From the NCBI GenBank assembly GCA_013298025.1, contig JAAFJE010000004.1, positions 178,528-242,527 of the forward strand: 64,000 bases of DNA. Reading direction: 5' to 3'. The position numbers were made by a program, and so were the translations under genes. Below, piece by piece: positions 40,671 through 53,648 of this stretch (positions are counted from its first letter, which is position 1; each line of letters starts with the position of its first letter). The notes beneath the pieces are model-generated. The model worked only from the letters and a program-made list of their open reading frames with translations, was not told the DNA's origin and did no database searches. This stretch comes from Cytophagales bacterium. Lineage in GTDB: Bacteria > Bacteroidota > Bacteroidia > Cytophagales > Spirosomataceae.

Positions 40671-40829
40671 GTATATAAACGGATTAAAGTTGCGAAGTAA
40701 CATTTGTATGGGTTGTATCAGCACTGGAATTTAGGTGAAATATGTTGTTTGATCAAAAATCTCTTGAAATAAGACGTTTTTCTTTTTACACAAAAGGCAT
40801 AAAGAAGGGCTGCCTTTGCAGACAGCCCA

Positions 40830-41210
40830 AAATAAGTCTATAAGCCGGATTCTGTCAATACTTCTGCGAAGTATCGTCTTATCATTTATCTCGACGCACC
40901 GTCACCGATACGCTCTATCAACCTACCCGCTGACATCGGACGAGCAGCCCTTTTTCAAAACATTGCTGTTTCTCTCGCCAGCCTATTTGGTCTTTCAACA
41001 CATGAGGTTTACCTCTGCCTCGTTTGTCACCAACCGAGCGGTAGGCTCTTACTCTACCTTTTCACCCTTACCTTTGCAGGCGGTAATTTTCTGTGGCACT
41101 GGCTGTCACAAGCTCGTCGCCAAGCTTGTGCCTTCCCGTTAGGAAGCATGTTGCTCTGTGTTGTCCAGACTTTCCTCCCTTGTTGCCAAAGGCGATAAGA
41201 CGACTTATTT
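40830..41210 (-). ncRNA. rnpB: RNase P RNA, class A
   Basis: Reverse strand contains GAGGAAAGTC near the 5' end and ACAGAATCCGGCTTAT at the 3' end; termini pair (AAATAAGTC / GACTTATTT); terminator-like hairpin follows at about 40807-40828. Confidence 0.95.
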
Positions 41211-41269
41211 CTTTGGTAAAGATAGCCGACTTTTTTGGAAAGAGCAAATCCTACTTGTTCCTTGGCTTT

Positions 41270-47759: not shown

Positions 47760-50729
47760 ATGAACAATTTTAAAAAAATCAATAACCTTACCGGTTGGGC
47801 TGTATTTTTGATTTCTTTCGTCGTTTTTGCTGCCACAGTAGAGCGAACAGCCTCTTTTTGGGATTGCGGTGAATTTATAGCCTGTGCTTACAAGCTGCAA
47901 GTTCCTCACCCTCCTGGTGCACCACTATTTTTATTATTGGGAAGAATGTTCTCGTTGTTGGCGGGTGCCGATAAAACACAAGTGGCTTATTGGGTAAATA
48001 TGCTATCGGTGGTTTCGAGTGCTTTTACCATTCTATTTATGCACTGGACAATCGTATTGATTGGTCGTAAAATTTTAAATAAAAGCTTTGAATCTTTGAG
48101 CCTTGCCGAAGCTATCAGCTTGTTGGGGGCTGGGGTTGTTGGGTCCTTGGCTTATGCTTTTACAGATACGTTTTGGTTCTCGGCTGTAGAGGCCGAAGTG
48201 TATGCCATGTCGTCGTTCTTTACGGCATTGGTTGTATGGGCAGCTTTCAAATGGGAGCTTATCGAAGACGAAGCCGCAGCTAACCGTTGGTTGGTTTTTA
48301 TCGCTTATATCGTGGGCTTGTCTATTGGTGTCCACTTGCTAAACTTGGTAACTGTACCTGCGTTGGCGTTATTATATTATTTCAAAAAATACCCTAAACC
48401 AACTTATCTGGGCGGTTTTATTGCTTTAACGGTAGGTTTATTCATCTTGGGTATCATCAACTCTGGTATTATTCCGGGTATTCCATCGATGGCATTTAGC
48501 TTTGAACTAGCCTTTGTCAATGAGCTTGGTATGCCTTATGGTTCGGGAGTTATCGTATTTTTGGTCTTGTTTATTGGACTCTTGGTAGGGGGCGTAGCTT
48601 ATTCTCAAGCTAAAAATAAGGTAGGCTTAAACATATCGCTGTTGGCTTTGTCTTTTGTCTTGATTGGCTATTTGTCTTACAATTTGGCCTTGGTTCGTTC
48701 TACTTACAACACCCCAATCAACGAAAATGACCCGAGCAATATCCTCAACTTTTTAAAGTATTTGCGTCGTGAGCAATACGGCGAACGCTCGTTGTTGTAT
48801 GGCCCTATTTTTACGGCAGAAGTAGAAAGCGTTGACGCTGGCGCCCCTGTCTATAAAATGAAAGATGGCAAATACGTGGTATATGACCACAAGCAAAAAG
48901 TAACCTACAGCAAAAATGGTCAAATGTTGTTGCCTCGTATCTACTCGAATGCACCACAACACGTGGCTCTTTACCGTGAAATGCTAGGCTTGGCAGAAGG
49001 TGAAACGCCTACATTTGGCGACAACCTCCGCTTTATGTTTACGCACCAAATGGGTCACATGTATATGCGTTATTTGCTTTGGAACTTCGTCGGACGAGAA
49101 AGCGATATTCAAGATGCAGGCGTGATAGATTATACACGGAAAGGTGCTTTACCCGAATTGCTCGCCAACAATAAAGCACACAATAATTACTTCTATTTGC
49201 CACTTATCTTGGGTTTACTAGGCTTTTTCTTATTGTATCGTAAAAATGAAAAAGACTTTTTAATTACGATTTTGATGTTTTTGATGACGGGCTTGGCACT
49301 GGTTATTTTCCTTAACTCGCCTCCAACAGAGCCTCGTGAGCGTGATTATATTTATGTGGGTTCGTTCTATTTCTTTGCTATTTGGATTGGCCTAGGCGTA
49401 ATGCAATTGGCCGAATGGTTGTTGAAACTCATCAAAAATCCTGTGTCAACGAGCTATGCCGCCACTGCGGTTTCGTTGGTGATTCCTGTGATTTTGATTC
49501 AACAAAACTGGGACGACCACGACCGCAATCACCGTTATCATCAGGTTGATTTTGCTAAAAATATGCTCAATTCTTGTGCCCCCAACGCTATTTTGTTTAC
49601 GGGTGGCGACAACGATACTTTCCCCTTGTGGTATGTGCAAGAAGTAGAAGGATTCCGTACCGATGTGCGTGTATGTAACCTTTCGTTGTTGGGTACAGAC
49701 TGGTACATCGAGCAAATGAAACGCAAAACGTATGAGTCGGAAGCTTTGCCTATTTCTTTAGATAAAGACCGTTTCTTGGAAGGTATCAACGACCAAATTT
49801 TATTCTACGAAAACCCTAATGTCAAAAATGGCATTAACCTCGAAGAATACATCAAATTGGTGAAAGATGATAACCCTGCTATCAAAGTGCCATTACAAGA
49901 TGGTACAATGATTAATACCTTGCCTTCTGAGAATGTTTTTGTGCCTGTGAATGTAGAAGAAATGAAAAAAGCTACTTTCATACCCGATGCCCTCAAACCA
50001 TATTTGATGGACCAAGTAAGTTGGTCGTTGGGCAAAGGTGGCTTGATGAAACCCGAATTGATTCAGTTGGATATTATTGCCCAAAATGCCAAAAATGGCT
50101 GGAAGCGTCCTATTTATTTCGCTACAACTTTGGCAAGCAGCAGCTACCTCAACATGAAAGAAATGATGCAGCTAGAAGGTTATGCGTATCGTTTGTTGCC
50201 AGTGAAACTGCCAGAAGCCAAAGAAGGTATTGTCAATACCGACATCATGTTTGATAACGTAACGAAGAAAATGTTCTGGAGAGATTTAGACAATCCAAAC
50301 ACGTACTATCATTCTGATTTTTACTTAGAAGTACCAGTGATTACGGCACGTTTGAGCTTCTTGCGTTTGGTGGACCAGTTGGTAAAAGAAGGTAAATTGG
50401 CGAAAGCAAAAGAAGCATTAGATTTTGAAATGAAGGTGATGCCCGACAAAACTATCCCTTACGACCAGCTTAGTGCCAATTTTGTATCGCTTTATTTAGC
50501 GGTAGGCGATAAGAAAAAGGCCTTGGAAATTGCTGATACCATGATGAACCGCAACGATAAAGCATTAACGTACTACCTGCAAGAACGCAGAGGAAGCGAT
50601 TCTCGTGAAATTCAAACGGCCTTGTATGAAATGCAAATCATTGTCAATGGGCTGAAAGAAGCAAAACTTCCCGAAGCAGCCAAGTACGAAGAGATGTTTA
50701 ATCGTCAGTACAATAAAGCTAGTTCATAA
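47760..50729 (+). CDS. DUF2723 (TMEM260-like) membrane glycosyltransferase
   Basis: WDCGEFIA, HPPGAPLF, FWFSAVEAEVY, GDNDTFPLWY. Confidence 0.9.
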   Translation: MNNFKKINNLTGWAVFLISFVVFAATVERTASFWDCGEFIACAYKLQVPHPPGAPLFLLLGRMFSLLAGADKTQVAYWVNMLSVVSSAFTILFMHWTIVLIGRKILNKSFESLSLAEAISLLGAGVVGSLAYAFTDTFWFSAVEAEVYAMSSFFTALVVWAAFKWELIEDEAAANRWLVFIAYIVGLSIGVHLLNLVTVPALALLYYFKKYPKPTYLGGFIALTVGLFILGIINSGIIPGIPSMAFSFELAFVNELGMPYGSGVIVFLVLFIGLLVGGVAYSQAKNKVGLNISLLALSFVLIGYLSYNLALVRSTYNTPINENDPSNILNFLKYLRREQYGERSLLYGPIFTAEVESVDAGAPVYKMKDGKYVVYDHKQKVTYSKNGQMLLPRIYSNAPQHVALYREMLGLAEGETPTFGDNLRFMFTHQMGHMYMRYLLWNFVGRESDIQDAGVIDYTRKGALPELLANNKAHNNYFYLPLILGLLGFFLLYRKNEKDFLITILMFLMTGLALVIFLNSPPTEPRERDYIYVGSFYFFAIWIGLGVMQLAEWLLKLIKNPVSTSYAATAVSLVIPVILIQQNWDDHDRNHRYHQVDFAKNMLNSCAPNAILFTGGDNDTFPLWYVQEVEGFRTDVRVCNLSLLGTDWYIEQMKRKTYESEALPISLDKDRFLEGINDQILFYENPNVKNGINLEEYIKLVKDDNPAIKVPLQDGTMINTLPSENVFVPVNVEEMKKATFIPDALKPYLMDQVSWSLGKGGLMKPELIQLDIIAQNAKNGWKRPIYFATTLASSSYLNMKEMMQLEGYAYRLLPVKLPEAKEGIVNTDIMFDNVTKKMFWRDLDNPNTYYHSDFYLEVPVITARLSFLRLVDQLVKEGKLAKAKEALDFEMKVMPDKTIPYDQLSANFVSLYLAVGDKKKALEIADTMMNRNDKALTYYLQERRGSDSREIQTALYEMQIIVNGLKEAKLPEAAKYEEMFNRQYNKASS

Positions 50730-50748
50730 TTTTACAGTTAATAAATGG

Positions 50749-50778
50749 AAAGGGGATGCAGCGATGCGTCCCTTTTTT
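50749..50778. terminator. bidirectional terminator
   Basis: AAAGGGGATGCA-GCGA-TGCGTCCCTTTTTT. Confidence 0.75.
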
Positions 50779-50779
50779 G

Positions 50780-50986
50780 TTAGCAGTCTAATACACTTTC
50801 GTCGGTAAGAATATGGTTTTGTAAAACCCATTCTTTCAATGCCTTCCGATGCTCATGCCGTACAATTACTTGTACTTTGGTTTGCCCTTCTTTTAAAATC
50901 AAAAAAGCCGTACTCAAAAACTTAGAATAGGTAATATAATAAACGTATTCTGCTCGATAAGGCATATTAAATGCTGTATGATTCAT
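50780..50986 (-). CDS. hypothetical 68-aa protein
   Basis: ATG after an AT-rich leader; ends right at the shared terminator; no recognisable motif. Confidence 0.4.
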   Translation of the reverse strand: MNHTAFNMPYRAEYVYYITYSKFLSTAFLILKEGQTKVQVIVRHEHRKALKEWVLQNHILTDESVLDC

Positions 50987-51384
50987 AAAAACAATAGCGT
51001 ATTTTTTAAAAAAAGGGATGATTGACGAATTTAGCTATTAATTGTTTTTGCTACAATAGTAATAGGTAAAAATACCAGAGATATTTCCTTGAATAGTATC
51101 AAACAAAAACATCCTCAGAAAGGTTATAAAAACGTTTCTGTACAAAAAACTACCGTTTACTTTTTTATCGGCTTCTTTTTTCTAAATTCTGGCGTACTTT
51201 ATACAATTTGGCATGAATATTGACCATTATTAGAAGTAACATATTTTTGTGTCCAAACAAGATACATCAGTATTTATTCTTTTTGTTTGTTTTTTTTGCA
51301 ATTCGTTAGTTTTTTTTGGAAAAAAGCTCAAAAAAAATAATAAAAAACTTGTTTGGCATATTTATTGTAAATAATTTTACAAGC

Positions 51385-51745
51385 AAGAACATATTCCGCC
51401 AAGCGTAGTTCAAACAGATACAACATAGATTCAATTACTATACTATCTTTCACTACTGCTTACAGCGAATACCTTCTTAAAGCTTTATATTACCGAGCAT
51501 CATCAGTTTCTGTCCGCCAAACAGAAATTCAAAATATAAAGGTTGGATTACAAAACTTACTTAGTTGTCAAATAATTTCGATAATAAAACCGCCATTTTA
51601 TTATCTATTTTATCAATAAGTAAACTACAGAGTTCAACAGTAAAGACATTCAAGTTACAACTTGTGGGTTAGGATTACCCAAAAGATAACTACTTAGGCG
51701 GATTGCGTAAAGGCTCGGAGCGTTGCTTCGGGTCTTTATTTATTG
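51385..51745 (+). ncRNA. candidate sRNA A (three CCGCCA motifs at or near hairpin loops)
   Basis: Promoter-like TAATTTTA at 51372-51379, no ATG seen on the + strand, terminator hairpin at 51709-51737 whose three G-U pairs favour the + strand. Confidence 0.5.
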
Positions 51746-51872
51746 ATATACCCAAAAAATTGTCCTCTTTTTTTTTCCTCTATTGCGTCAAAACCTTCCT
51801 TCGTGTAATTCTCAGAAAATTCCGATTCTTGTCTTTGTGTTGTTCTGTATAAAATACGTATGTTTGTACTAT

Positions 51873-52090
51873 CAATTACATCATATTTGTGGCGGCAAAG
51901 AAATGTAAAAGACCACACAATGGTATATATGGCTACCTTGTAGTGCTGTGGCGGCAGCTATGAAGTAACCCTATACGACCAGCCTAAGTAAAACTGAAAA
52001 CAATTAGCCTAAGTAAATTTGTAATCCTACAAACCAAGTAACTTAAACATTACTGCAAACCCTTGGAGTGGCGGCTTCGAGGGTTTTTGC
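51873..52090 (+). ncRNA. candidate sRNA B (three TGGCGG-loop hairpins)
   Basis: Consensus -7 box TATGTTTG at 51859-51866; three hairpins with the identical loop; the last is a terminator (52055-52090); only tiny ORFs (7 aa or less). Confidence 0.6.
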
Positions 52091-52301
52091 TTTATATGCC
52101 CGTCTGATTTTCTTCTTTTTCTCCCCCCCAATAGAAATTTCATTGTATTATTTCAAGATTGTTCAGAATTAACAGGATGGTGCATGATAGACATTTTTAG
52201 AGAATAAAGTTATTTTACAATAAATAGTACATATAATACAAGCATTGTCGTGTATTGCGACAATACGCCACTTTCCTCAAAGCATAATTTACTAGACGTT
52301 C

Positions 52302-53648
52302 ATGGAACACACAATACTCAACAGAAGAGATTTTTTACAACAAGCTACGCTTGCCGCTGCTGGTGTAGCCCTCAGTACCATTCCCGACGTACTAGGAGCA
52401 ACCGCTACCAAACGTAAAGTGGCTATGGTTGGTACAGGTCACAGAGGCACAGGTATGTGGGGTACGCCTGTTGTACACGAGTTTAGTGACGTAATCGAAT
52501 TTGTGGGTTTGTGTGATGCGAACATTGGTAGAGCCGAAACTGCCAAAAAAATGCTGGGCGTTACTTGTGCTGTATATACCGATTTTGAAAAAATGATGCG
52601 TGAAACCAAACCCGATTTACTCATTGTAACAACGGTAGATGCTACGCACGATAAATTTATCATCAAAGGAATGGAAATGGGTGCAGATATTATCACTGAG
52701 AAACCCATGACTACCGATGAAGGCAAATGTCAAGCCATTTTAGATGCTGAAAAAAGAACAGGCAAGAAAGTAACCGTTACGTTCAATTACCGCTATTCGC
52801 CGCATCGTCAAAAAATATACGAATTGTTGCGTGCAGGAGCTATTGGCAAGGTTACGTCGGTCGATTTTCACTGGTATTTAGATACACGCCACGGAGCAGA
52901 TTATTTCCGCCGTTGGCATCGACTCAAAGAAAACTCTGGGTCGCTTTGGGTGCACAAGGCTAGTCACCATTTTGATTTATTGAACTGGTGGCTCGAATCG
53001 GAACCAGCTTCGGTATATGCCCAAGCTGCCCTAGAGCATTATGGTAAAAACGGGACTGTACGAGGCAAAAACTGTCGTACCTGCGACCACAAAGCGACGT
53101 GTCCGTTTTATTGGGACATCACCAAAGACAATCGTTTGGTAAACCTTTACGTCAATAACGAACAACACGACGGCTATTTGAGAGATGGCTGCGTATTTAA
53201 AGAAGACATCAATATTTACGATAAAATGGCGGCAACCATTCAGTATGCCAATGGCGTAAATGTGAGTTATTCGCTTACAACCTATTCACCTTATGAAGGG
53301 TATCGCATTGCCTTCAATGGTACACAAGGAAGACTAGAGGCTTGGATAAAAGAAACAGGTCAAATGACTATTGAGCCTTATGACGAACTGATGCTTGCGA
53401 AAAACTTTGGTGCAGTAGAGTATATTAAAATCCCACAGGCCGAAGGGCATGGCGGCGGCGACGCTCGATTGAGAGATAAAATTTTTAGAAACCCCAATAG
53501 TGCCGATACTTTCCGTCAATCGGCTGGCAGTAGAGATGGTGCTATGGCCATTTTGGTTGGCATTGCAGCCCGTAAAAGTGCCGAAACAGGACAGTCCATT
53601 AAGATTGCCGACCTTACCGATTTGAAGCCTAGAGCTATTAAGGCATAA
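52302..53648 (+). CDS. Gfo/Idh/MocA oxidoreductase with Tat-like signal
   Basis: LNRRDFLQ, MVGTGHRG, TEKPM, HKASHHFD, GHGGGD. Confidence 0.9.
   Translation: MEHTILNRRDFLQQATLAAAGVALSTIPDVLGATATKRKVAMVGTGHRGTGMWGTPVVHEFSDVIEFVGLCDANIGRAETAKKMLGVTCAVYTDFEKMMRETKPDLLIVTTVDATHDKFIIKGMEMGADIITEKPMTTDEGKCQAILDAEKRTGKKVTVTFNYRYSPHRQKIYELLRAGAIGKVTSVDFHWYLDTRHGADYFRRWHRLKENSGSLWVHKASHHFDLLNWWLESEPASVYAQAALEHYGKNGTVRGKNCRTCDHKATCPFYWDITKDNRLVNLYVNNEQHDGYLRDGCVFKEDINIYDKMAATIQYANGVNVSYSLTTYSPYEGYRIAFNGTQGRLEAWIKETGQMTIEPYDELMLAKNFGAVEYIKIPQAEGHGGGDARLRDKIFRNPNSADTFRQSAGSRDGAMAILVGIAARKSAETGQSIKIADLTDLKPRAIKA

What the first reader, a model, noticed from the sequence alone, without database searches (positions are those of the whole stretch)
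51372..51745. Candidate sRNA A displaying CCGCCA three times
Seen: CCGCCA at 51396-51401 (imperfect stem with U-G pairs), 51514-51519 (TTTCTGT/ACAGAAA stem) and 51590-51595 (perfect 10-bp stem GATAATAAAA/TTTTATTATC). The unit is bounded by a promoter-like TAATTTTA (51372-51379) and a terminator (51709-51745) whose three G-U pairs only work on the + strand. The upstream gene already has its own terminator, so this one needs its own transcript. No + strand ATG was seen. An internal GGCGGA (51697-51702) could pair with TCCGCC.
Basis: partly seen in the sequence, partly recalled or inferred. Interest (0 to 1): 0.62.

Follow-up and report, generated by a model that had tools for sequence, protein, structure and literature searches.

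The report
Small RNA with docking loops for neighbour
This is very probably a real, roughly 365-base non-coding RNA of a freshwater Flectobacillus; it belongs to no described RNA family, and its repeated CCGCCA hairpin tips and its invariant 3' "seed" are both complementary to the small RNA encoded next to it, so the two look like a co-evolving regulator and anti-regulator pair.

Summary
CCGCCA occurs three times on the + strand (51396, 51514, 51590). Copies 2 and 3 sit in clean hairpin loops. A + strand terminator follows at 51707-51739, and there is no + strand ATG.

Comparison with about 85 species shows a conserved family absent from Rfam. Its 3' module is a hairpin, the invariant UACUUAGGCGGAUUG, and a terminator. 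This module is single-copy in 8 genera of freshwater Spirosomataceae.

Aquirufa-like genomes carry only a ~95-nt short form. Flectobacillus, Arcicella, Pseudarcicella and others carry a long form. The long form starts at a conserved sigma-54-type -24/-12 element and adds 1-5 hairpins with the hexaloop CCGCCA, whose stems covary.

G-U pairs fix the strand as +. sRNA B lies on the same strand beside or near every long form whose downstream flank could be read. B carries UGGCGG loops and a conserved GCCUAAG(UA) that is complementary to A's seed.

In one genus, in both its species, A's loop is CUGCCA and B's loop is UGGCAG, a compensatory change. This supports direct loop-loop pairing.

The parts
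51209..51223 (+). Distal -24/-12-like element 'P2' (TGGCATGAATATTGA), 145 nt upstream of P1. It may be a second sigma-54-type promoter or an upstream activator site.
   Evidence: A like element, TTGGCAyGAAAnTTGA, lies 109-173 nt upstream of P1 in most long-form loci (328 nt in one). In Arcicella-type loci it is partly palindromic and sits just after a terminator-like hairpin. It is conserved in the near-identical relative L119.
51354..51368 (+). Proximal promoter element 'P1', TGGCATATTTATTGT, with sigma-54-type -24 GG / -12 G geometry. The predicted start site is about 51380.
   Evidence: TGGCA[CT]-N5-TTG[CTA] lies 316-571 nt upstream of the seed in all 22 long-form loci with enough upstream sequence. 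The first CCGCC follows 39-43 nt after it, and sequence conservation of the RNA begins 11-12 nt after TTG. The element is invariant within the genus. The genome encodes 2 RpoN and 6 enhancer-binding proteins.
51372..51379 (+).
   Evidence: It is read directly in the sequence. Other Flectobacillus have TACATTTG or TATTTTTG here, with TTG 20 nt upstream. Arcicella, Pseudarcicella and genus g17 have no such box.
51380..51747 (+). Predicted sRNA A transcript, about 365 nt.
   Evidence: It is bounded by P1 and the terminator. The fold gives z = -5.1 on the + strand. It is 95.6% identical in the close relative L119, against 86% for the P2-P1 spacer. It contains no ATG.
51396..51401 (+). CCGCCA copy 1, near the 5' end (about +17). 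It is predicted to pair with the 3' GGCGGA.
   Evidence: P(unpaired) is 0.07, and its partner is 51697-51702. A homologous UUCCGCCA lies at the same distance from P1 in 17 long-form loci, where it forms a hexaloop on a 4-6 bp stem.
51505..51529 (+). Hairpin 2: 9-bp stem with loop CCGCCAA.
   Evidence: P(unpaired) of the motif is 0.97.
51580..51605 (+). Hairpin 3: 10-bp stem with hexaloop CCGCCA, followed by UAUUUUAUC. It could act as a weak internal terminator.
   Evidence: P(unpaired) is 1.00. In L119 the closing G-C pair has become G-U, which is tolerated only on the + strand.
51651..51681 (+). Two small hairpins (CAAGUUACAACUUG and GGGUUAGGAUUACCC) that precede the seed.
   Evidence: Hairpin b covaries across genera (GGGU/ACCC, CGGG/CCCG, GAGU/ACUC, GAGC/GCUC). 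In the whole 3'-module alignment, 6 of 23 predicted pairs show changes on both sides.
51691..51705 (+). Invariant single-stranded seed UACUUAGGCGGAUUG.
   Evidence: It is identical in all relatives first found by BLAST and in the 85 species genomes then collected with a pattern built on it; a model search gives single-copy hits of >79 bits in 8 genera. It is unpaired in the consensus structure. UACUUAGGC is complementary to GCCUAAGUA in sRNA B.
51707..51747 (+). Intrinsic terminator (15-bp stem, loop GUU) with a U-rich tail.
   Evidence: It is found by the scan. Two G-U pairs are kept in 15-16 of 16 sequences, so it works only on the + strand.
51867..52095 (+). Partner sRNA B. It has UGGCGG loops at 51890, 51949 and 52069, and GCCUAAGUA at 51982-51990 and 52007-52015.
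   Evidence: It is 98.7% identical in L119. Homologues lie downstream of A on the same strand in every long-form locus whose downstream flank could be read (the L081 copy comes).

Best explanation
sRNA A is a genuine + strand regulatory RNA of about 365 nt in a Flectobacillus species. It is built from two modules.

The 3' module (about 51640-51747) consists of two small hairpins, the invariant single-stranded seed UACUUAGGCGGAUUG and a terminator. It is the ancestral unit: it exists alone as a ~95-nt sRNA in Aquirufa-like genomes.

The 5' module (about 51380-51610) is a lineage-specific extension. It is transcribed from a sigma-54-type -24/-12 element and displays CCGCCA on hairpin loops.

Both modules are complementary to the neighbouring sRNA B. 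The CCGCCA loops match B's three UGGCGG loops, which would allow loop-loop kissing. The seed's UACUUAGGC matches B's conserved GCCUAAGUA.

I infer that A and B form a dedicated RNA-RNA duplex, an sRNA and anti-sRNA (sponge) pair. The loop array would give fast, multivalent docking. Duplex formation would mask the seed, which otherwise most likely pairs with mRNAs carrying GCCUAAGU near their start codons. In free A, the 5'-proximal CCGCC can also fold back onto the seed's GGCGG.

Shown by sequence and comparison: the family, the strand, the boundaries, the loop display, the double complementarity, the co-occurrence with B, and one compensatory loop change.

Inferred: sigma-54 dependence, which RNA controls which, and mRNA targeting.
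For: Family and seed: the 3' module is found in 85 species genomes. It is single-copy at >79 bits in 8 genera out of the 51 genera represented among the 401 family genomes sampled. Its hairpin covaries and the seed is invariant and unpaired.

Strand: terminator G-U pairs are kept in 16/16 sequences. Over 50 distinct CCGCCA hairpins the stems sum to 406 bp on + (78 of them G-U) against 176 bp on -, and + is the longer in 44 against 2.

Array: long forms carry 3-5 exact CCGCCA hexaloops on different stems. 10 of 31 stem pairs show compensatory changes while the loops stay invariant. The motif is unpaired at p = 0.97-1.0 in the window's RNA.

Promoter: a conserved TGGCAy-N5-TTGn sits at a fixed distance from the 5' hairpin. 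RpoN and enhancer-binding proteins are encoded.

Partner: B, with UGGCGG loops, lies on the same strand downstream of every CCGCCA-array locus whose downstream flank is available. The B-type terminator is present in 4 of 4 array genomes and absent in 15 of 15 short-form genomes. GCCUAAG occupies a fixed place in 17 of 18 B homologues.

Compensation: in both species of genus g17, A's only such loop is CUGCCA and B's is UGGCAG, on differing stems. The numbers of loops also match, 1:1 there against 3:3 here.

Locus specificity: these hexaloops are not enriched genome-wide.

Targets: 8 of 25 GCCUAAGUA sites outside the locus lie within -170..+40 of ORF starts on the sense strand, against 6.7% for 300 permuted controls.
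Against: The transcript, its ends and any processing are therefore predictions.

The compensatory loop change is a single evolutionary event, seen in two species.

In other Flectobacillus species A's loops are CCGCUA and CCGCACA while B keeps UGGCGG. Pairing there is weakened (one G-U pair, or only 4 bp) and not compensated. In L064, loops of both RNAs have decayed without matching each other.

The -12 element reads TTGT or TTGA in most loci rather than the canonical TTGC. Canonical TGGCAC-N5-TTGC never occurs in the intergenic DNA of this genome. In Flectobacillus a sigma-A-type box overlaps the element.

The candidate mRNA targets show no functional theme, and the one I tested has no orthologues.

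A hairpin followed by a U-run in the middle of the RNA could split it into two transcripts.
Confidence: 0.6

Rival explanations
1. There are two separate RNAs rather than one. A 5' 'array' RNA would run from P1 to the third hairpin plus U-run (about 51380-51612). An independent or processed ~100-nt seed sRNA would be homologous to the Aquirufa short form.
For: The short form exists alone, with its own sigma-A-type promoter, in 62 loci. Hairpin 3 is followed by UAUUUUAUC. Arcicella-type loci have a terminator-like hairpin (GGACAC...GUGUUGUCUUUUU) between the array and the 3' module. The last 145 nt are 100% identical to L119, while the 5' part is about 93-95% identical.
Against: No conserved TAnnTTTG-type promoter lies in front of the 3' module in any long-form genus. 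Hairpin 3 has an all-A-U stem, which makes a poor terminator. The global fold joins the 5' CCGCC to the 3' GGCGG.
Confidence: 0.2
2. A is a protein sponge. The repeated CCGCCA hexaloops would titrate an RNA-binding protein, as CsrB and RsmZ do for CsrA or CrcZ does for Hfq/Crc. The complementarity to B would then be secondary.
For: The architecture resembles known protein sponges: 3-5 identical loops on variable stems, a length of 350-600 nt and a sigma-54-like promoter, as in CrcZ (the comparison rests on my own knowledge).
Against: The matched change from CCGCCA/UGGCGG to CUGCCA/UGGCAG in two RNAs is what RNA-RNA pairing predicts, not what a shared protein site predicts. B also carries a second, unrelated complement to A's seed. 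No candidate protein is linked to the locus, and the flanking genes differ between genera.
Confidence: 0.1
3. The element is a cis-acting leader or regulator of the downstream Gfo/Idh/MocA-SusC/D genes rather than a free-standing sRNA.
For: It lies upstream of, and on the same strand as, a SusC/D-type locus. Some Bacteroides sRNAs are associated with polysaccharide utilization loci (PMC11697453).
Against: It has its own conserved terminator, and a second terminated RNA plus about 200 nt separate it from the gene. The neighbours differ in other Flectobacillus, Arcicella and Aquirufa.
Confidence: 0.03
4. The element is a tRNA 3'-end mimic. UUCCGCCA equals the 3' end of tRNAs with discriminator G (for example Asp and Ser in E. 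coli, from my own knowledge). A's loops would imitate uncharged tRNA ends, and B's UGGCGG loops would read them, as a T-box does.
For: Only the sequence resemblance of CCGCCA to N-CCA ends, and of UGGC to the T-box UGGN bulge.
Against: The g17 variant CUGCCA/UGGCAG keeps mutual complementarity. No tRNA comparison was done. The first two C bases would be base-paired in a real tRNA acceptor stem.
Confidence: 0.03
5. The RNA is made from the - strand, which would make it a UGGCGG-loop paralogue of B, or the region is not functional at all.
For: The hairpins are inverted repeats, so in principle they can form on both strands. The - strand fold gives z = -2.1.
Against: G-U pairs would become A-C mismatches on the - strand: 406 bp against 176 bp of stem. 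The terminator and its U-tail exist only on the + strand. The conserved promoter is upstream on the + strand. Strong conservation in 85 species excludes a non-functional region.
Confidence: 0.02

Closest known systems
RoxS/FsrA with the sponge RosA (B. subtilis), and RsaE/RsaG/RsaD with RsaI (S. aureus) (PMC8216469)
   Same: These are stand-alone, trans-encoded sRNA pairs. One RNA shows several C-rich regions in accessible loops. The other carries matching G-rich regions and neutralises it. The two genes have separate promoters, which link the pair to different signals.
   Different: The phylum differs (Bacteroidota, not Firmicutes). There is no sequence or Rfam relationship. The motif is the exact hexaloop CCGCCA against the hexaloop UGGCGG (loop-loop), not CCCC against single-stranded G-tracts. 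The partners are genetically linked in tandem. A second complementary site exists (seed against GCCUAAGUA). The C-rich loops here show no sign of targeting ribosome-binding sites.
ColE1 RNA I / RNA II and R1 CopA / CopT kissing complexes (own knowledge)
   Same: Recognition would start from several complementary hairpin loops that kiss, followed by pairing through a single-stranded stretch.
   Different: Those are cis-antisense RNAs from opposite strands of one plasmid locus, complementary along their whole length. A and B lie in tandem on the same chromosomal strand and are complementary only in the loops and one 7-9 nt site.
Sigma-54-dependent sRNAs: Qrr1-5 (LuxO), CrcZ/CrcY (CbrB), GlmY (GlrR), NrsZ (NtrC) (own knowledge)
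   Same: There is a -24/-12-type promoter in front of a non-coding RNA. As in CrcZ, the RNA is long (350-600 nt) and carries a repeated short motif. As in GlmY/GlmZ, two RNAs are involved and one may act as a decoy.
   Different: All of those are proteobacterial. CrcZ and GlmY titrate proteins. Sigma-54 dependence is only inferred here, and the -12 box is non-canonical (TTGT).
Bacteroides thetaiotaomicron sRNAs (GibS, MasB, FopS family, BTnc231) (PMC7366714, PMC10994844, PMC11697453)
   Same: They are Hfq-independent Bacteroidota sRNAs with intrinsic terminators and short single-stranded seeds.
   Different: No covariance-model match falls inside A. The best scores, 20-21 bits against thresholds of 56-80, fall on the upstream gene's terminator. 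The taxonomic range differs, and none has an array of identical loops.

Membership tests
Any Rfam 15 family | Covariance-model score at or above the family's gathering threshold | tested here: not met
   The only hit in the window is RNase P, at 40825-41211. A permissive scan of 50700-52350 gives nothing above 23 bits and no E-value below 0.16. There are no hits in five homologous loci from other genera.
FopS / BTnc231 (Bacteroides sRNAs, RF04319 / RF04180) | Model score of at least 56 or 80.4 bits over the candidate | tested here: not met
   The scores are 20.6 and 21 bits, and the matches lie at 50715-50836, on the upstream gene's terminator and outside sRNA A.
Sigma-54-dependent sRNA | -24 GG / -12 GC promoter at the correct spacing upstream of the start site | tested here: inconclusive
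   TGGCAT-N5-TTGT lies at 51354-51368. GG and the -13 G are invariant in 22 of 22 long-form loci, but the -12 base is C in only 7. An overlapping sigma-A-like box exists in Flectobacillus.
Sigma-54-dependent sRNA | The organism encodes RpoN and enhancer-binding proteins | tested here: met
   There are 2 PF04552 genes and 6 strong PF00158 genes. None is on the window's contig.
Sigma-54-dependent sRNA | Transcription is lost in an rpoN or activator mutant | not testable with these tools
   This needs genetics.
sRNA / sponge-RNA pair (RoxS-RosA type) | Complementary motifs in accessible regions of two separate trans-encoded RNAs | tested here: met
   CCGCCA loops (p unpaired 0.97-1.0) face UGGCGG loops, and UACUUAGGC faces GCCUAAGUA (p unpaired about 0.55). 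Each RNA has its own terminator.
sRNA / sponge-RNA pair (RoxS-RosA type) | The interaction sites co-evolve or co-occur | tested here: met
   Genus g17 has CUGCCA with UGGCAG in both species. The B-type terminator is found only in genomes with the array. This is one evolutionary event, and some lineages show uncompensated decay.
sRNA / sponge-RNA pair (RoxS-RosA type) | One RNA alters the level or activity of the other in vivo | not testable with these tools
Cis-antisense kissing-loop control RNAs (RNA I / RNA II type) | The partners are transcribed from opposite strands of the same DNA and are fully complementary | tested here: not met
   A and B lie in tandem on the same strand, with a ~120-nt gap here and about 2.2 kb in other Flectobacillus. 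Complementarity is confined to the loops and one 7-9 nt site.
CsrB/RsmZ-type protein sponge | Multiple GGA / ANGGA motifs in hairpin loops | tested here: not met
   The repeated loop is CCGCCA. Presence of CsrA was not tested.

The most novel reading that the evidence does not exclude
Freshwater Spirosomataceae carry a self-contained, RNA-only regulatory module of two or three tandem sRNAs: an upstream GGCGG-loop RNA in Arcicella-type loci, then A, then B. These RNAs would recognise each other through arrays of co-evolving complementary hexaloops (multivalent kissing) plus a seed/anti-seed site. One partner would be under sigma-54 and enhancer-binding-protein control. An environmental signal would then be converted into release or sequestration of an ancient, invariant 15-nt seed. 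That would be a trans-encoded, chromosomal counterpart of plasmid kissing-loop control, and it has not been described in any phylum.
Probability: 0.35. Interest if true: 0.8.

Novelty: new variant of a known kind. Interest (0 to 1): 0.66.

Why it matters
Almost nothing is known about RNA-based regulation in Bacteroidota outside gut Bacteroides, and nothing in Cytophagales. Most of these organisms lack Hfq and ProQ, and their mRNAs lack Shine-Dalgarno sequences.

A conserved sRNA family with an invariant 15-nt seed offers a tractable entry point. It has an apparently sigma-54-controlled long isoform and a linked partner RNA that matches it at up to four or five sites. Flectobacillus, Arcicella and Aquirufa strains are cultivable.

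The system would also be a natural example of multivalent loop-loop recognition between trans-encoded RNAs. That bears on how sponge RNAs achieve speed and specificity without a chaperone, and it is relevant to RNA design. The predictions (loop and seed mutations with compensatory changes, and rpoN dependence) are simple to test.

Tried and rejected
- **Rfam.** Searches at gathering and at permissive thresholds, in the window and in five related loci, found nothing.
- **Genome-wide display of the motif.** CCGCCA and UGGCGG hexaloop hairpins are at background frequency in the genome (11 and 13 of 2919 occurrences). This is not a dispersed repeat or a general structural motif.
- **mRNA targets anchored on CCGCC.** 99 sites give at least 10 bp of pairing to the seed region, but none cluster at start codons. 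CCGCC, GGCGG, UGGCGG and CCGCCA show no start-codon enrichment.
- **Target conservation.** The best 5'-UTR candidate (C52, -28) has no orthologues in 20 relatives. The candidate proteins have no common theme.
- **rRNA spacer as target or origin of B.** One Aquirufa genome has GCCUAAGUA in the tRNA-Ile/tRNA-Ala spacer of all three rRNA operons. The pattern is absent from the other 400 family genomes, so I rejected this idea.
- **Whole-molecule duplex energy of A and B.** The value is not different from shuffled controls (-76 against -69 +/- 7 kcal/mol) and is uninformative for short loop contacts.
- **BLAST for B outside the genus.** This fails even though B-like RNAs are plainly there. Absence by BLAST is therefore not evidence.
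- **Sigma-A reading of the promoter.** It fits Flectobacillus (TTG-N20-TAnnTTTG) but not Arcicella, Pseudarcicella or g17.
- **Coding potential.** There is no + strand ATG, and a 5-nt indel separates the window from its close relative.
- **More genomes for the compensatory change.** Genus g17 holds only two genomes, and the metagenome scan added only two loci.
Full report
**1. What is in the window**

The finding lies in a 1.57-kb gene-free stretch (50730-52301). A TMEM260-like glycosyltransferase gene lies upstream and a Tat-signal Gfo/Idh/MocA oxidoreductase with SusC downstream.
- CCGCCA occurs at 51396, 51514 and 51590 on the + strand. Its complement TGGCGG occurs at 51890, 51949 and 52069, in "sRNA B".
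- Base composition predicts 0.026 CCGCCA copies in the 366-nt unit, so P(>=3) = 2.8e-6.
- Copies 2 and 3 sit in the loops of a 9-bp and a perfect 10-bp hairpin. They are unpaired with probability 0.97 and 1.00 in the ensemble.
- Copy 1 forms no stable local hairpin (-3.3 kcal/mol). It is predicted to pair with GGCGGA at 51697-51702.
- A terminator-like hairpin at 51707-51739 is found on the + strand.
- The + strand contains no ATG.
- The + strand folds far better than shuffled controls (z = -5.1). The - strand gives z = -2.1.

**2. It belongs to a conserved, undescribed RNA family**

Rfam has nothing here, neither in the window nor in related loci.

BLAST against relatives showed that only the last ~90 nt are conserved beyond the genus. 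An exact-pattern scan of one genome per species found the core TACTTAGGCGGATTGnnTAAAGG in 85 genomes. All are freshwater Cytophagales of the Spirosomataceae type: Flectobacillus, Arcicella, Pseudarcicella, Aquirufa, Sandaracinomonas and MAGs.

The window's organism is therefore a Flectobacillus.

A covariance model of the 3' module gives one strong hit per genome (>79 bits). These strong hits fall in 8 of the 51 genera represented among 401 family genomes. The only other matches are much weaker (<=57 bits). Most are terminator-like; a few are divergent extra copies in array-bearing genera (section 8).

In the alignment:
- the small hairpin before the seed covaries (six pairs of the alignment change on both sides);
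- the 15-nt UACUUAGGCGGAUUG is invariant and unpaired;
- the terminator keeps two G-U pairs in 15-16 of 16 sequences.

**3. Two forms**

Sixty-two loci (Aquirufa and allies, with small genomes) carry a ~95-nt short form. It has a Bacteroidota sigma-A-type box (TAtTTTTGTGTACAA), one variable hairpin, the seed and the terminator.

Twenty-four loci, the window among them, carry a long form with 320-570 nt of extra 5' sequence.

In all 22 long-form loci with enough upstream sequence, TGGCA[CT]-N5-TTG[CTA] lies at the 5' border. In 17 of them the first CCGCC follows 39-43 nt later. Conservation of the RNA sequence begins 11-12 nt after the TTG, which is where a sigma-54 start site is expected.

In the window this element is TGGCATATTTATTGT (51354-51368). 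That places the start near 51380.
- The genome encodes two RpoN and six enhancer-binding proteins.
- A second, similar element (51209-51223) lies 145 nt upstream. In Arcicella-type loci it is partly palindromic. A/T tracts lie between the two elements in the window, its close relative L119 and Flectobacillus. This is the classical layout of an activator site, a bend and a -24/-12 promoter.

There are caveats.
- The -12 base is C in only 7 loci.
- Canonical TGGCAC-N5-TTGC never occurs in this genome's intergenic DNA.

I rate sigma-54 dependence at about 55%.

**4. The CCGCCA display is the conserved feature of the long form**

Across genera the long forms carry 3-5 hairpins whose loop is exactly CCGCCA, on stems that differ between hairpins and between species. 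In an alignment of 12 Arcicella-type arrays the three hexaloops are almost invariant (one species has changed two of them), while 10 of 31 stem pairs show compensatory double changes.

The stems are rich in G-U pairs. Over 50 distinct hairpins they sum to 406 bp when read on the + strand (78 of them G-U) and to 176 bp on the - strand. The + strand is the longer in 44 cases and the - strand in 2.

In the near-identical metagenomic relative L119, the closing G-C pair of hairpin 3 has become G-U.

Genome-wide, these hexaloops are no more common than chance. The display is specific to this locus.

**5. The partner**

Every long-form locus with a CCGCCA array, and with downstream sequence available, has sRNA B 400-680 nt further on the same strand. 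B has three UGGCGG loops.

In other Flectobacillus species a protein-coding gene separates the two RNAs, and B lies about 2.2 kb away.

B's characteristic terminator (CCCT..UGGCGG..AGGG) is present in 4 of 4 array genomes tested. It is absent from 15 of 15 short-form genomes.

The decisive observation concerns genus g17, which holds two species.
- A has no CCGCC in its 5' part. It has one hairpin with hexaloop CUGCCA.
- B has one hairpin with loop UGGCAG, and its terminator loop lacks GGCGG.
- CCGCCA/UGGCGG has thus become CUGCCA/UGGCAG. Position 2 of one loop and position 5 of the other changed together, turning a C-G pair into a U-A pair.
- Both species keep this on stems that differ between them. 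The loop numbers also match: 1:1 in g17 against 3:3 here.

A second, independent complementarity exists. A's invariant UACUUAGGC is the exact complement of GCCUAAGUA, which occurs twice in the window's B (51982, 52007). As GCCUAAG it occupies a fixed position in 17 of 18 B homologues. The exception carries CCUAAGU in its terminator arm.

Not everything fits.
- Other Flectobacillus species have CCGCUA loops, which still pair through one G-U, and CCGCACA loops, which give only 4 bp. Their B is unchanged.
- One Arcicella MAG has decayed loops in both RNAs that do not match each other.

**6. Mechanism proposed**

Shown:
- A is a modular + strand RNA.
- Its 5' loops and its 3' seed are each complementary to accessible, conserved elements of B.
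- The two genes are linked, and they co-occur with the array.
- One compensatory change links their loops.

Inferred:
- A and B form a specific RNA-RNA complex that is nucleated by multivalent loop-loop kissing and completed at the seed.
- One RNA thereby neutralises the other, as in an sRNA/sponge pair.
- The pair has separate promoters (sigma-54-like for A; a TAtgTTTG sigma-A box in front of B). These would tie the balance between the two RNAs to an enhancer-binding-protein signal.

The seed module exists without B or the array in Aquirufa. Its primary function must therefore be something else, most likely pairing with mRNAs.

In this genome GCCUAAGUA sites outside the locus are enriched near start codons on the sense strand. 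Eight of 25 lie within -170..+40, against 6.7% for 300 composition-matched permutations, none of which reaches that fraction. Four of 25 lie within -60..+30, against 2.8%. The GC-rich hexamers show no such bias.

This suggests a division of labour. UACUUAGGC would be the mRNA seed, and the GGCGG/CCGCC contacts would be reserved for RNA-RNA docking and for self-masking of free A.

The target evidence is weak. The candidates share no theme, and the one I examined is strain-specific.

**7. Comparison with known systems**

The closest functional analogues are the Firmicute C-rich sRNAs RoxS, FsrA and RsaE with their G-rich sponges RosA and RsaI (PMC8216469).

The recognition geometry recalls plasmid RNA I/RNA II kissing complexes. 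The promoter and the repeated motif recall CrcZ and GlmY (own knowledge).

A is a member of none of these.
- There is no homology and the phylum differs.
- Pairing is hexaloop against hexaloop.
- The genes are linked in tandem on the same strand.
- There is a dual interaction site.

It does not match the Bacteroides sRNA families in Rfam.

I classify it as a new variant of a known kind: an sRNA/anti-sRNA pair in a new family.

**8. Limits and side observations**

I could not see or check its basis.

One transcript or two, the direction of control, sigma-54 dependence and the mRNA targets all remain open.

Side observations:
- Arcicella-type loci carry a third RNA upstream with 1-3 GGCGG loops.
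- Divergent copies of the seed-plus-terminator module sit just after the stop codons of signalling-type genes (my reading of the sequences, not checked) in some Arcicella and g17 genomes.
- The window's own genome has another sigma-54-like element followed by a CCGCCA hexaloop hairpin and a terminator on contig C1.

Noticed in passing
G000 contig C1:239480-239898, - strand (outside the window): A second candidate sigma-54-type non-coding RNA in the same genome. TGGCACGGATATTGT is followed about 90 nt later by a 10-bp-stem hairpin with hexaloop CCGCCA. About 300 nt further on there is a clear terminator, all within a 520-nt gene-free stretch. It could be another member of the same RNA network.
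   Followed up: partly
L070, L025, L094, L044 and other Arcicella-type loci, 750-1100 nt upstream of the sRNA A seed on the same strand: A third RNA-like unit with 1-3 hairpins whose loops carry (U)GGCGG(AA). It ends in a CCCCA...UGGGGUUUU terminator just before the distal -24/-12-like element. These loci thus hold a GGCGG-loop RNA, then the CCGCCA-array RNA A, then the GGCGG-loop RNA B. The window has no such upstream unit.
   Followed up: partly
L152:1085-1156 (G168:C25:66784-66855); also L156 and L151: Divergent extra copies of the seed-plus-terminator module (for example AAAAAUUACUUAGGCGGAUUAUAUAAAGGCUU...) lie immediately after the stop codon of what look like a sensor-kinase and a response-regulator gene (read by eye, not checked against Pfam) in some Arcicella and g17 genomes. 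They may be 3'-UTR-derived paralogues or the evolutionary source of the module.
   Followed up: partly
L166, L171, L176 (Aquirufa genome G271, three rRNA operons): GCCUAAGUA, the complement of the seed, lies in the tRNA-Ile/tRNA-Ala spacer of all three rRNA operons, next to a stretch resembling the core of sRNA B. It is not found in the other 400 family genomes, so it is probably coincidental.
   Followed up: yes
window 51286-51349: The stretch between the two -24/-12-like elements consists of long T- and A-tracts and a CAATTCGTTAG box. It is almost invariant in the close relative L119 and is shared with another Flectobacillus species, while the preceding 60 nt are variable. It may be a bend or protein-binding region of the promoter.
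   Followed up: partly
window 50780-50986, - strand: A 68-aa ORF with no Pfam match lies between the upstream gene's terminator and the RNA locus. The upstream region is not conserved in the near-identical relative L119.
   Followed up: partly
window 40825-41211, - strand: A bacterial RNase P class A RNA (251.7 bits). It is the only Rfam hit in the window.
   Followed up: no
L002-L006 (other Flectobacillus species), between the sRNA A and sRNA B homologues: A protein-coding gene of about 2 kb sits between A and B in the other Flectobacillus species. In the window and in L119 the two RNAs are only about 120 nt apart, which indicates an insertion or deletion within the RNA pair.
   Followed up: no
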